The notes under the pieces are model-generated. The model saw only the letters and a list, made by a program, of their open reading frames with translations, had not been told where the DNA came from and did no database searches. A program made the translations under genes and the position numbers. Below are positions 18,249 through 21,562 of a DNA stretch of 46,093 bases, piece by piece (position 1 is the first letter of the stretch; every line of letters starts with the position of its first letter). This DNA is from Patescibacteria group bacterium. GTDB taxonomy: Bacteria > Patescibacteriota > Minisyncoccia > Phycocordibacterales > JBHPGB01. Location: positions 1 through 46,093 of the forward strand of contig JBHPGB010000005.1 of assembly GCA_042571085.1 (NCBI GenBank), written 5' to 3'.

Positions 18249-19712
18249 ATGAATAAGAATATACCTAAGGAAATATTAGATATCATCGAAACAATACAAA
18301 ATGCCAAATTTGAAGCATATTTGATTGGTGGCTGTGTGCGTGATTTGTTGCGCGAGCAAAAACCAAAAGATTGGGACATTACCACCAGTGCAAAACCTGA
18401 AGAAATTGAAGGATTGTTTGAAGATACTTTTTATGAAAATGATTACGGAACTGTTGGTGTTGTAAATAAAGAGGTTGAAGATGAAACGCTTCGTATAATA
18501 GAAGTTACTCCATATAGGATTGAAGGAAAATATGTAGACGGACGACGTCCAGAAGAAGTACATTTCAGCGACAAGCTAGAAGACGATCTAAAGCGCCGTG
18601 ATTTTGCGATGAACGCGATCGCATATAATCCTGCTGAAGAAAAAATTGTTGACCTATACAACGGACAAGAAGATATAAAAAATAAGATAATCAAAACAGT
18701 AGGGGAGCCAGGTGAGCGCTTTGCTGAAGATTACCTGCGAATGATGCGCGCTGTGCGACTTGCAACAGAGCTTGATTTTGAAATAGACCAAGATACAAAG
18801 GAAGCAATCATTAAACACGCAGACAGTCTTCCATCAATATCCACCGAGCGCATTCGTGATGAGTTTGTAAAAATCATTTCTTCTTCAAACCCAATGAAAG
18901 GAATTTTAGCACTACACGAGCTGGGACTTTTAAAACACATTGCACCAGAGATTGAGGAAGGTGTTGACATAGACCAAAGCAGAAGCCACATATACAATGT
19001 GTGGGAACACAACTTGCGAGCATTGCAACATTCAGCAGACAGAAATTACAAACTTGAAGTAAGACTTGCTGCGCTTCTACATGATGTAGCAAAACCAGCA
19101 ACACGACGCTACTCAAAAGAAAAAGATCTATATACTTTTTATGGGCACGACGTGGTTGGTGCACGTATGACAAAAAAACTAATGGAACGACTACGTTTCT
19201 CACGAGAACAAACAGACACGGTAGTAAAATTAGTCCGCAACCATCTTTTCTTTACAGACATTGACGCAATCACACTTTCTGCAGTGCGAAGAATTATTAG
19301 AAATGTTGGTGCAGAAAATGTGTGGAATTTAATAGAGCTACGCACCTGTGACCGTATTGGAATGGGTCGTCCGAAGGAAGAGCCTTATCGATTACGTAAA
19401 TATGAATCAATGATTGAAGAGGCTATGCGTGCGCCAGTATCTGTGGGAATGCTAAAAATTGACGGTATACAAGTGTCTGAAATTGCTGGAGGTGCTGGGC
19501 CAAGAGTTGGCTGGATACTACACGCCCTTCTAGAAGACGTGCTTGATGACCCAGAATTAAATACTGAAGAATATTTAAACAATCGCGCGCAAGAATTTGC
19601 GAAGATGTCAGGTAAAGAATTAAAAGAGTTGGGAGAAAAAGGGCGGGAGAAAAAGGAAGAGGAAGAGGAGAAAGAATTGGGGGAAATAAGAAAAAAATAT
19701 AAGGTGAAGTAA
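18249..19712 (+). CDS. cca: CCA tRNA nucleotidyltransferase with HD domain
   Basis: GGCVRDLL, KDWDITT, DLKRRDFAMNA, EDYLRMMRAVR, LLHDVAKP. Confidence 0.93.
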   Translation: MNKNIPKEILDIIETIQNAKFEAYLIGGCVRDLLREQKPKDWDITTSAKPEEIEGLFEDTFYENDYGTVGVVNKEVEDETLRIIEVTPYRIEGKYVDGRRPEEVHFSDKLEDDLKRRDFAMNAIAYNPAEEKIVDLYNGQEDIKNKIIKTVGEPGERFAEDYLRMMRAVRLATELDFEIDQDTKEAIIKHADSLPSISTERIRDEFVKIISSSNPMKGILALHELGLLKHIAPEIEEGVDIDQSRSHIYNVWEHNLRALQHSADRNYKLEVRLAALLHDVAKPATRRYSKEKDLYTFYGHDVVGARMTKKLMERLRFSREQTDTVVKLVRNHLFFTDIDAITLSAVRRIIRNVGAENVWNLIELRTCDRIGMGRPKEEPYRLRKYESMIEEAMRAPVSVGMLKIDGIQVSEIAGGAGPRVGWILHALLEDVLDDPELNTEEYLNNRAQEFAKMSGKELKELGEKGREKKEEEEEKELGEIRKKYKVK

Positions 19713-19755
19713 CCAAAAAGAAAAATCGGCTCTGCCGATTTTTCTTTTTGGTTAC
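19709..19755. terminator. Palindromic terminator including cca stop codon
   Basis: GTAACCAAAAAG..ATCGGC-TCT-GCCGAT..CTTTTTGGTTAC. Confidence 0.8.
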
Positions 19756-19911
19756 GGAACCGAGCACTATTTTTACTCAAGTCTAATATTTCAATAATGG
19801 TATTTCTTGACCGATTCGCTTGTATAACCACCTTGCTTATTAAAACAAAATAGTGCTTGGTGAAATAAGTTTAAAAGTGCGCAAGTTTCACTTGTACACG
19901 TTTTGTTTACA

Positions 19912-20508
19912 ATTGAAAACCGCCGTTTCGAATAAATTCGAAACGGCGGGCGATCCATCACACTTCTACTATCCTTATTGAATTAATCCTTCAATTAAAA
20001 CTTCCTTTAGTGTAAATTGGAATAAACAGGGATTGTTTTAGGTATGATCAGGCGAGGCGAAATTGAACACAATGAGGGATGTTTAGTCTCTTATACAAAC
20101 ATCATTACTGAGTCATATAACCGAGCTTATTAGGCCGGGCAGGAACTATCCTACACTCATTGCGAGTTCTGTATACCAACAATCACATAGCAGCAATCCT
20201 TGTTGCTATATGCTTGGGGGTTGTTATGTAAAGATCAATAGGGAACTGAGGTGCAGCCTTGGCTGCGACACACACATAAAAAATTTTCAAAGATGAAATT
20301 AAATTTTCAACAATCAGTCAATTTTGAAGCTCTTAAGTCTCCAAACATCCAAAGTATACATCACGTATCCTTCGGGGTTCGATTGACATCCTGCTGAAGT
20401 TAGTCTTATTGCCCACATCTTTGTCGGCGCACACTCAATTTTTATTTGAAATAGCTCATATGCCATTCGAGGCAGCATTATTACCACCTGACATCGCTAT
20501 CTAACCCT
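19912..20508 (-). ncRNA. Candidate large structured ncRNA (~590 nt), family unidentified
   Basis: No long ORF; minus-strand TTGACA-16-TATACT promoter (20542-20515); terminator CCGCCGTTTCGAAT/ATTCGAAACGGCGG+TTTT at 19949-19916; many nested helices. Confidence 0.6.
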
Positions 20509-20701
20509 ACACGTAGTATACACGAATTAAATTATTTGTCAAGTCTAATCCTTTGCATTTTAATATTGTATATATCTAATGTATATGGTGAATTCGACCA
20601 TAAGCATGGTGATTATCACTAGTATCACCTGCAAAACCACCGCATGCACATATGTTTGTTGCATGCGGTGTTTTTTATTAAATAAAAAATTTAAATAATT
20701 A

Positions 20702-21562
20702 CTAAAGATTCAACTCAAGACCAATCGGGCAGTGATCAGACCCTTCAATTAAATCAAAAATTTCTGCCTTTTTAATTTTACCTCCTAATACTTTTGAGAC
20801 TAAGAAATAATCTATACGCCAACCAACATTTCGAGCACGTGCCATGGCACGATAGCTCCACCATGAATATTTTACTTCCTCTGGATGCATGTATCTAAAC
20901 GTATCAATAAAACCTGCTTCAATAAAATCACTGAAGCGCTCTCGTTCCTGATCAGTAAAGCCTGGATTACCAGGGTTAGATTTGGTCGTCCTATTCTCTT
21001 TGGGGTTAGCTAAATCAATCTCTTCATGAGCAACATTCATATCTCCACAAAGAACAACTGGTTTTTTCTTTTCCAAATTCTTCAAATGCTTCAACATAGC
21101 CTTATCCCAAGTATCGTACCTATAACCCAAGCGTAAAAGCCCGTGCTTTGAATTCGGTGTGTAAACCGTTACGAGAAAAAAATCTTTGAATTCTAATGTA
21201 ATAACACGCCCTTCTTCATCTTGCTCTTCTTTTTTAAGAGTACCCAAACCAAAAGTTTCAGAAATTGGTTCTATTTTTGAAAAAATTGCTGTACCAGAGT
21301 AGCCTTTTTTCTTCGCAGAATTCCAAATATGATACGGATAATCTGGAAAAAGCTTTCCTTCTTTGATATTTCCATTATCATTCGCTGATTCAAACAAGGG
21401 AGTATCTTCTTTTTCAAAAAATTCGTCTACCTGGCTCTTGTGTGCTTTTGTTTCTTGTATACAAAAAATATCCGGCTTCTCATCCTTTTCAATAAAAGTT
21501 ACAGCTCCGGGCTTCTGCACCCACGCACGTATTCCATTTACATTCCAAGAAACTATTTTCAT
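20702..21562 (-). CDS. xth: Exodeoxyribonuclease III
   Basis: SWNVNGIRA, IQETK, GYSGTA, VYTPNS, GDMNVAH, GWRIDYF, GSDHCP. Confidence 0.97.
   Translation of the reverse strand: MKIVSWNVNGIRAWVQKPGAVTFIEKDEKPDIFCIQETKAHKSQVDEFFEKEDTPLFESANDNGNIKEGKLFPDYPYHIWNSAKKKGYSGTAIFSKIEPISETFGLGTLKKEEQDEEGRVITLEFKDFFLVTVYTPNSKHGLLRLGYRYDTWDKAMLKHLKNLEKKKPVVLCGDMNVAHEEIDLANPKENRTTKSNPGNPGFTDQERERFSDFIEAGFIDTFRYMHPEEVKYSWWSYRAMARARNVGWRIDYFLVSKVLGGKIKKAEIFDLIEGSDHCPIGLELNL

What the first reader, a model, noticed from the sequence alone, without database searches (positions are those of the whole stretch)
19912..20542. Candidate ~590-nt large, ornate ncRNA with its own promoter and terminator between cca and xth
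Seen: in a gene-dense genome, a ~1-kb gap has no ORF of 60 aa or more inside it. On the minus strand a TTGACA-16-TATACT promoter (20542-20515) and an intrinsic terminator (19949-19916) delimit ~590 nt. Long-range nested helices are visible: GATTGTT/GGTAT (20184-20173) pairs with ATACC..AACAATC (20045-20031), enclosing GAAC..GCAATGAG/CTCATTGT.GTTC, which closes a multiloop of hairpins (GTAGGA/TCCTGC, CCG.../...CGG, GATGTTTG/TAAACATC). Further stems include CATATAGCA/TGCTATGTG, TTATGT/ACATAA, GCAGCC/GGCTGC, TGCC/GGCA and ATTGAA/TTCAAT. Most wobble pairs read as G-U on the minus strand. It lacks RNase P, tmRNA and SRP signatures. Inference: an independently transcribed large structured RNA in the size class of ROOL/OLE/GOLLD, possibly a new class.
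Basis: partly seen in the sequence, partly recalled or inferred. Interest (0 to 1): 0.85.

Follow-up and report, generated by a model that had tools for sequence, protein, structure and literature searches.

The report
Orphan promoter-to-terminator noncoding unit
A roughly 590-base stretch between two genes of a tiny bacterial genome looks like its own transcription unit with no protein in it, but it has no relatives and its middle differs between close strains, so it is probably a lineage-specific RNA and not a new conserved ornate RNA class.

Summary
The sequence features are real. On the minus strand there is a TTGACA-16-TATACT promoter (20542-20515), a 13-bp intrinsic terminator (19949-19920 plus a T run), and about 594 nt between them with no ORF over 57 aa. 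The gap is the 4th largest of 655 in a 637-kb genome. The promoter core matches a strong promoter type seen in 28 of 401 genomes of the order, where it drives rRNA, tRNA and a small acidic protein.

The "large ornate RNA class" reading is not supported.
- No Rfam family matches.
- BLAST found no homologue in 401 order-level and 401 phylum-level genomes.
- Two single-sequence covariance models found only themselves in 151 genomes each.
- In a near relative (contigs of a public run), the interior 20063-20452 is replaced by 224 unlike bases. Only the promoter plus about 55 nt at the 5' end and about 150 nt at the 3' end are kept.
- Folding energy is modest: z -2.5 without the terminator, about the 10% tail of this genome's background.

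tmRNA, RNase P and SRP RNA are excluded. No expression data exist.

Best reading: a lineage-specific, fast-evolving noncoding transcript. Interest is low to moderate.

The parts
20515..20542 (-). sigma-70-type promoter, TTGACA-16-TATACT. The 29-nt core 20543-20515 is of an order-wide strong promoter type.
   Evidence: 11 of 12 matches; the same 29-mer with 2 or fewer mismatches occurs in 28 of 401 order genomes, with 0 hits for the reversed control, and is identical in G225; in relatives this type stands upstream of 23S rRNA, tRNAs and a small acidic ORF.
19915..20508 (-). predicted primary transcript, about 594 nt. Both ends are inferred from the promoter and terminator, not measured.
   Evidence: No ORF over 57 aa. 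No Rfam match.
20453..20508 (-). 5' segment kept in a near relative. It is predicted to pair with 20027-20054.
   Evidence: an X1 contig covers 20453-20544 with 5 differences, and an X2 contig covers 20459-20664 with 0; pair probabilities 0.43-0.63.
20063..20452 (-). interior 390 nt that holds most of the predicted hairpins. It is replaced by 224 unlike bases in a near relative.
   Evidence: joint 20062/20453 in X1; the X2 contig diverges before 20459; z is -2.73 on the minus strand and -1.33 on the plus strand.
19950..20062 (-). 3' segment kept in the near relative, with one 24-nt insertion behind 20017. On its own it has no energy excess.
   Evidence: X1 covers 19790-20062 with 4 differences. 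(z +0.26).
19912..19949 (-). intrinsic terminator: 13-bp stem, 4-nt loop, T run.
   Evidence: I5; mean pair probability 0.96.
20317..20478 (-). 54-codon ORF with AGGTGG 5 nt upstream. It is probably not coding.
   Evidence: ORF and upstream bases. (no homologue). (codon score 0.011, below 98% of real gene fragments and reached by 20.5% of decoy ORFs). (no Pfam match).
20633..20675 (-). terminator hairpin of the upstream ExoIII-family gene. It separates that gene from the candidate's promoter.
   Evidence: I3.
19709..19755 (.). 22-bp perfect hairpin, a bidirectional terminator after the CCA-enzyme gene.
   Evidence: I1; hairpin-only Rfam noise.
20702..21562 (-). ExoIII-family nuclease gene (xth-like), upstream neighbour.
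   Evidence: PF03372, 1.2e-27.
18249..19712 (+). CCA-adding enzyme-like gene (PolyA_pol head, RNA-binding and HD domains), convergent neighbour.

Best explanation
The stretch is a self-contained transcription unit on the minus strand. A strong sigma-70-type promoter of the kind this bacterial order uses for rRNA, tRNA and an abundant small protein starts an RNA near 20508. A strong intrinsic terminator ends it near 19915. The RNA of about 594 nt most likely encodes no protein.

It is a lineage-restricted, fast-evolving noncoding transcript, not a conserved ornate RNA. In a near relative only the promoter, the first 55 nt or so and the last 150 nt or so are kept. These two kept ends are predicted to pair with each other, closing off an interior of local hairpins that is exchanged between strains.

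Shown from sequence: the signals, the absence of coding signal, the absence of homologues, and the strain-level replacement. Inferred: that the unit is transcribed, where its ends lie, the end-to-end pairing, and any function. My guess at function is a dispensable regulatory or decoy-type RNA whose interior is free to vary.
For: - Promoter and terminator lie on the same strand in the right order.
- The promoter core is identical or nearly so to a type found in 28 of 401 order genomes, with 0 reversed-control hits. That type lies upstream of 23S rRNA, tRNAs and a small ORF in relatives.
- There is no ORF over 57 aa.
- The best small ORF has no homologue in 5.8 billion proteins and non-coding-like codon usage.
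- Ten of the 15 stop-to-stop frames of at least 35 aa that one search lists over 19760-20690 were scanned against Pfam, with no hit beyond one at E 0.08. Dropped were three plus-strand frames inside the gap (36, 35 and 46 aa; the 46-aa one begins at the end of the CCA-enzyme gene) and two long minus-strand frames antisense to that gene.
- There is no remnant of genes that neighbour xth in relatives.
- No Rfam family matches at E of 10 or less apart from terminator-hairpin noise.
- The fold is more stable on the minus strand than on the plus strand.
- The unit sits in the 4th largest gap of a genome whose median gap is 68 nt.
- Near-relative contigs keep 20453-20544 and 19790-20062 but not the interior.
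- The kept ends pair at p about 0.6.
- A similar promoter-to-terminator orphan in G035 is likewise found in only 1 of 19 genomes of its family, itself. Such units therefore turn over quickly in this order.
Against: - There are no expression data of any kind.
- An 11-of-12 promoter match alone is at chance level genome-wide.
- The energy excess without the terminator (z -2.48) lies in the 10% tail of random genomic windows.
- G+C (39%) is at the genome mean (37.9%), unlike RNase P (43.7%), rRNA (46.5%) and tRNAs (51-60%), although the tmRNA is 36.5%.
- The replaced interior and the lack of any homologue fit non-functional DNA as well.
- The 54-codon ORF has a plausible Shine-Dalgarno sequence.
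Confidence: 0.5

Rival explanations
1. One reading: a conserved, large, ornate structured RNA in the size class of ROOL/OLE/GOLLD that founds a new class.
For: The size, its own promoter and terminator, many stable local hairpins, z -3.5 and strand-specific for 20230-20510, comparable to this genome's RNase P at -3.54, and no known family.
Against: - No homologue in 61, 401 (order) and 401 (phylum) genomes by BLAST.
- Covariance models R1 and R2 found only themselves in 151 genomes each.
- R1 against 31 promoter-type and xth loci with filters off reached at best 21 bits, not in a matching place.
- The interior that carries most of the helices is replaced in a near relative.
- The outermost helix has p of 0.01 or less.
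- G+C is not raised.
- Background windows reach the same z in 5-10% of cases.
Confidence: 0.08
2. An mRNA for one or more very small proteins, for example the 54-codon ORF 20478-20317, with a long 3' untranslated part.
For: AGGTGG lies 5 nt before the ATG. The same promoter type drives a 35-40-codon acidic ORF in four relatives.
Against: No homologue and no Pfam match. The codon score is below 98% of real gene fragments. In the near relative only about the first 8 codons fall in the kept segment. The ORF covers only 165 of about 594 nt.
Confidence: 0.15
3. Non-functional hypervariable intergenic DNA: a recombination or indel hotspot, or the remnant of lost genes or a small mobile cassette. On this reading the promoter and terminator are leftovers and the hairpins are chance.
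For: - There is a mosaic of kept and replaced blocks in near relatives, also between xth and the promoter, where 182 nt are replaced by 376.
- No homologues were found anywhere searched.
- The fold statistics are modest.
- A 19-nt imperfect direct repeat brackets the unit at 20549-20531 and 19787-19769.
- Several other unexplained gaps of 600-1260 nt exist in the same genome.
Against: A 637-kb genome with a 68-nt median gap rarely keeps 1 kb of junk. The promoter core is kept downstream of xth in three runs, even where the transcribed part differs. There is no trace of a decayed gene. There is no match to phages, plasmids or viral contigs.
Confidence: 0.25
4. A highly divergent copy of a universal RNA (tmRNA, SRP RNA, RNase P RNA) or a self-splicing intron.
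For: At first neither tmRNA nor SRP RNA was found in the genome.
Against: - RNase P RNA is at C2:96387-96745.
- tmRNA is at C1:50327-50874, just downstream of smpB.
- The SRP proteins are also not found: there is no SRP54-type GTPase domain or M domain in the genome, and neither SRP RNA nor the M domain was found in 31 order genomes.
- No intron or other family matches at E of 10 or less.
- ARAGORN finds nothing there.
Confidence: 0.02

Closest known systems
Large ornate bacterial RNAs (OLE, GOLLD, ROOL)
   Same: Several hundred nucleotides long, no coding capacity, many predicted hairpins, apparently its own transcription unit.
   Different: Those classes are defined by many homologues with conserved sequence blocks and covarying helices (recalled; I saw only the search listing and abstract of PMC12286853). 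Here no homologue exists in what was searched, there is no Rfam match, and the interior is not kept even in a near relative.
Species-specific orphan bacterial sRNA / noncoding transcripts
   Same: A sigma-70 promoter, an intrinsic terminator, no conserved ORF, and a distribution restricted to close strains.
   Different: At about 594 nt it is several times longer than typical sRNAs. It sits in a much-reduced genome, and it uses a promoter of the type that relatives use for stable RNAs.
tmRNA
   Same: The kept 5' and 3' parts are predicted to pair around a variable interior. The size is like this genome's own 548-nt tmRNA.
   Different: There is no tRNA-like domain and no RF00023 or ARAGORN match. 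The real tmRNA lies next to smpB on another contig.

Membership tests
Any Rfam 15 family (including OLE, GOLLD, ROOL, group I/II introns, 6S, RNase P, tmRNA, SRP; that these are in the library is recalled, apart from the accessions searched by number) | Covariance-model match at or near the family's gathering score | tested here: not met
   only 4 tRNAs in the whole window; on 19700-20750 at E of 10 or less, only hairpin-type noise on the two terminators; the best score is 30.9 bits against a cut-off of 48.
Large ornate RNA class (new or known) | Multiple homologues in other genomes | tested here: not met
   BLAST found only 18-44-nt matches to the promoter or the AT-rich part. R1 and R2 found only themselves in 151 genomes each. 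One search gave no credible hit. A family-level xth relative lacks the unit.
Large ornate RNA class (new or known) | Base pairs supported by covariation | not testable with these tools
   There is no alignment to count on. The only variant data give 3 visible substitutions in the kept 3' part. One is a C-to-U change opposite G that keeps a pair, one breaks an end pair, and one lies in a loop.
Large ornate RNA class (new or known) | Fold clearly more stable than background | tested here: inconclusive
   z is -2.48 without the terminator and -3.50 for 20230-20510. In the genome background, 9 of 91 windows reach -2.5 or lower and 5 of 91 reach -3.5 or lower.
tmRNA | tRNA-like domain formed by the two ends, a tag reading frame, and a match to RF00023 or ARAGORN | tested here: not met
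   The genome's tmRNA is at C1:50327-50874.
SRP RNA | Helix-8 motif, a match to RF00169 or RF01854, and an Ffh partner | tested here: not met
   No Ffh or FtsY domains in the genome.
Independent bacterial transcription unit | Promoter and intrinsic terminator on one strand, insulated from neighbouring genes | tested here: met
   The xth gene's own terminator lies at 20633-20675 and the cca terminator at 19709-19755. This is sequence-level evidence only; no transcript data exist.

The most novel reading that the evidence does not exclude
The unit may be one of a hidden set of strongly promoted, species-specific large RNAs in this SRP-less, reduced-genome order. In such RNAs a short kept 5' end and a kept 3' end pair to close a hairpin-rich interior that is swapped between strains. 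Function would then reside in a variable cassette (for example host- or phage-directed recognition) framed by a constant scaffold. Comparable orphan promoter-to-terminator units of about 490 and 670 nt exist in G035 and G017.
Probability: 0.1. Interest if true: 0.65.

Novelty: new member of a known kind. Interest (0 to 1): 0.3.

Why it matters
If it is transcribed, this would be an unusually long orphan RNA under a stable-RNA-type promoter in a 637-kb genome that has little room for spare DNA. Its swap-in interior would be worth a look in metatranscriptomes of sediment Patescibacteria-like bacteria. As it stands, the finding mainly serves as a caution. A clean promoter, a clean terminator and many hand-drawn helices do not make a conserved ornate RNA. 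Homologues and covariation are missing, and close strains do not keep the helices.

Tried and rejected
- **Known families.** Rfam on the whole window and a permissive scan of the gap gave nothing.
- **tmRNA.** Not here. It was found next to smpB on another contig.
- **SRP RNA.** Rejected: there is no model or motif match and the partner proteins are not found.
- **Alternative genetic code.** Table 25 opens no long frame.
- **Decayed gene.** There is no Pfam signal in the 10 of 15 stop-to-stop frames scanned, and no tblastn trace of genes that neighbour xth in the relatives L014 and L015.
- **Small protein.** The 54-codon ORF has no homologue and non-coding-like codon usage.
- **Synteny route.** xth relatives from metagenomes (80 loci kept, best 74% and 71% identity) do not carry the unit downstream.
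- **Promoter route.** The 31-nt matches in G017 and G035 led to an order-wide promoter type. The transcribed parts downstream are unrelated to the window by blastn, nhmmer and alignment.
- **G035 orphan unit.** Not found in 18 other genomes of its family.
- **Repeats.** There is no tandem or array structure, so it is not a CRISPR- or TIGR-like array.
- **Mobile or viral origin.** No match in phage records, plasmid records or viral contigs.
- **Expression.** No RNA holder was listed by the look-up of sequencing runs. The three runs laid are DNA contigs, so nothing can be said about transcription. Parts of the stretch without cover in those runs are not evidence.
- **Literature.** Searches for SRP RNA or the signal recognition particle in the Candidate Phyla Radiation or Patescibacteria (one passage of PMC8321541 read) and for noncoding RNA with covariation in Patescibacteria turned up nothing on this kind of unit. 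Supplementary files were not consulted.

Full report
**Setting.** The window is contig C5 of a 637,548-bp, 21-contig genome, 94% complete, with 37.9% G+C. Its nearest held relatives are all only "same order". The finding lies between a CCA-adding-enzyme-like gene (18249-19712, +) and an ExoIII-family nuclease gene (20702-21562, -).

**Observation.**
- The scan finds TTGACA-16-TATACT at 20542-20515 on the minus strand (11 of 12 matches). It also finds a 13-bp, 8-G-C hairpin at 19949-19920 followed by a T run.
- The nuclease gene has its own terminator hairpin at 20633-20675. The CCA-enzyme gene has a 22-bp perfect hairpin at 19709-19755. The unit is therefore insulated on both sides.
- No ORF of 60 aa or more lies inside the gap. 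The longest is 57 aa under table 11, and table 25 does not open a long frame.
- With a simple greedy ORF map, the 989-nt gap is the 4th largest of 655 gaps, against a median of 68 nt.
- The outermost long-range helix appears only when 20025-20190 is folded alone. In the full-length ensemble it has probability 0.00-0.01, because its 3' arm pairs with the 5' end of the transcript instead (20509-20485 with 20027-20054, p 0.43-0.63).

**More than chance?**
- Energy z-scores are -4.15 (minus) and -3.47 (plus) with the terminator.
- Without it they are -2.48 and -1.33. For 20230-20510 they are -3.50 and -0.79. The kept 3' part scores +0.26. This genome's RNase P RNA scores -3.54.
- Among 91 random 281-nt windows of the genome, the mean z is -0.69. 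Five windows reach -3.5 or lower and 9 reach -2.5 or lower.
- The structure signal is therefore suggestive for the 5' half and unremarkable overall.
- G+C of the candidate is 39%, at the genome mean. RNase P is 43.7%, 23S 46.5% and tRNAs 51-60%, but the tmRNA is 36.5%.
- An 11-of-12 promoter match alone is not enriched genome-wide: 33 sites against 27-46 in block shuffles.

**The promoter is credible for another reason.**
- BLAST of the unit against 60 relatives gave only two 31-nt matches, both to the promoter.
- A pattern built from these matches occurs in 28 of 401 order genomes with 0 hits for the reversed control. One genome of another family (G225) has the identical 29-mer.
- Downstream of this promoter type, relatives have 23S rRNA (L098), tRNAs (L095, L096, L117, L116) and a 35-40-codon acidic ORF. 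Some have ORF-free stretches that end in terminators and have no Rfam match: G017 about 670 nt and G035 about 490 nt.
- The window's promoter is therefore of a strong, widely used type.
- This does not make the loci homologous. The transcribed parts share nothing by blastn, nhmmer or alignment.

**What it is not.**
- No Rfam family matches. The whole window at gathering scores gave only 4 tRNAs. The gap at E of 10 or less gave only terminator-hairpin noise.
- RNase P RNA is on contig C2.
- tmRNA was at first missed, although 56 of 61 order genomes have one over the cut-off. A permissive scan of the genome's large gaps then found it at C1:50327-50874 (548 nt, 50.2 bits), just downstream of smpB.
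- SRP RNA is not found in the genome, nor in 31 order genomes.
- The Ffh M domain is not found in 31 order genomes either. The genome has no SRP54-type GTPase domain at all. No SRP RNA is therefore expected.
- There is no repeat array.
- There is no similarity to phage records, plasmid records or viral contigs.

**Coding tests.**
- The only ORF with a plausible ribosome-binding site (54 codons, 20478-20317, with AGGTGG 5 nt upstream) has no homologue among about 5.8 billion proteins.
- Its codon score is 0.011. That is below 98% of real gene fragments and is reached by 20.5% of decoy ORFs.
- Ten of the 15 stop-to-stop frames of at least 35 aa listed were scanned against Pfam. They gave no hit beyond one at E 0.08.
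- Proteins that neighbour xth in two metagenomic relatives leave no tblastn trace in the gap.

**Homologues.**
- None was found. BLAST against 61 relatives gave only the promoter matches.
- Against 401 order genomes, 62 had matches at E of 0.05 or less. Apart from the self-match these were 18-44 nt, mostly in the AT-rich stretch, and the best had E 2e-4.
- Against 401 phylum genomes, 3 others matched, each over 29-39 nt of the same AT-rich stretch.
- Single-sequence covariance models of 20300-20432 (R1) and 20025-20190 (R2) hit only themselves in 151 genomes each.
- R1 with filters off on 31 loci gave at best 21.2 bits (E 0.016), at a place unrelated to the promoter.
- xth relatives at 74% and 71% protein identity do not have the unit downstream.
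- Single-sequence models are weak tools for distant relatives, so this does not prove absence.

**Near relatives.** Three DNA runs hold parts of the stretch. Laying their contigs gave the following.
- An 1114-nt contig of run X1 matches 20727-20851 (0 differences), 20453-20544 (5 differences) and 19790-20062 (4 differences and a 24-nt insertion). It replaces 20063-20452 (390 nt) with 224 unlike bases, and 20545-20726 (182 nt) with 376.
- A contig of X2 is identical over 20459-20664 and then diverges.
- A more distant contig of X3 has an xth-like end joined to the 31-nt promoter core, followed by unlike sequence.
- The promoter is therefore kept downstream of xth, and the two ends of the transcript are kept in X1.
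- The kept ends are the ones predicted to pair.
- The three substitutions visible in the kept 3' part are uninformative: one keeps a pair as G-U, one breaks an end pair, and one lies in a loop.
- The replacement sequences themselves could not be read with the tools.

**A parallel case.** The G035 orphan unit (same promoter type, ORF-free, terminator-ended) is found in only 1 of 19 genomes of its family, namely itself. That set includes 6 other species of its genus. Units of this kind turn over fast in this order.

**Verdict.**
- The sequence-level observation is largely right, and the unit is probably real as a transcription unit. It is not a member of any known RNA family.
- The evidence does not support a conserved ornate RNA. 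There are no homologues and no covariation, the interior is strain-variable, and the fold statistics are modest.
- I favour a lineage-specific, fast-evolving noncoding transcript (0.5). The rivals are non-functional hypervariable DNA (0.25), a small-protein mRNA (0.15) and the ornate-class reading (0.08).
- The most novel reading still open is a constant paired scaffold that frames a swappable interior, possibly one of several such species-specific RNAs in the order (0.1).

Noticed in passing
whole genome G000 and 30 order relatives: The SRP pathway seems to be missing. SRP RNA (RF00169) is found in 0 of 31 genomes and the Ffh M domain (PF02978) in 0 of 31. G000 has no SRP54-type GTPase domain (PF00448), so neither Ffh nor FtsY, and no match to the large SRP RNA model. 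Controls ring in 12-14 of 14 reference genomes. The two literature searches found no paper that reports this.
   Followed up: partly
G000:C1:50327-50874 (-), locus L164 28-575: The genome's tmRNA is unusually long (548 nt) and divergent (50.2 bits against a cut-off of 47). Relatives have 365-479 nt and 75-155 bits. It lies directly downstream of smpB (C1:50932-51360). The genome-wide search and ARAGORN both missed it.
   Followed up: partly
L095, L096, L116, L117 (about 70-210 nt downstream of the promoter): A conserved 35-40-codon acidic Ala/Glu/Thr-rich ORF under the same strong promoter type, followed by a terminator and then a tRNA, in genomes of three families.
   Followed up: partly
L094 = G017:C10 about 56400-57080; L113 = G035:C12 about 36997-36500: Two further ORF-free, terminator-ended units of about 670 and 490 nt behind the same promoter type, with no Rfam match. 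The G035 unit is absent from 18 other genomes of its family.
   Followed up: partly
window 19756-19900: The stretch between the candidate's terminator and the cca terminator holds a 15-bp long-range stem (19759-19773 with 19847-19861). It folds with z -3.29 on the plus strand and -2.17 on the minus strand. Contigs of three runs match parts of it with at most one difference each. It could be a separate small RNA.
   Followed up: partly
window 20549-20531 and 19787-19769: A 19-nt imperfect direct repeat (16 of 19) brackets the unit. One copy overlaps the -35 region. The X1 match starts at 20544 and its contig ends at 19790. By a rough estimate of my own this is about chance level (roughly 0.3 such repeats expected per kb).
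   Followed up: no
G000:C8:2600-3650 (L153): tRNA-model matches of 108 and 164 nt next to the 5S rRNA gene, possibly tRNA genes with insertions or introns.
   Followed up: no
G000: C2:67613-68876, C19:1579-2601, C9:26233-27047, C5:16204-16912, C8:21341-22173: Other ORF-poor gaps of 700-1260 nt with no Rfam match at E of 0.01 or less. One of them has only two weak sub-threshold matches (L20 leader, sraL).
   Followed up: no
G000:C4:34279-34307 (+): A second copy of the strong promoter type (2 mismatches), about 350 nt upstream of a 1052-codon ORF. This implies a long leader.
   Followed up: no
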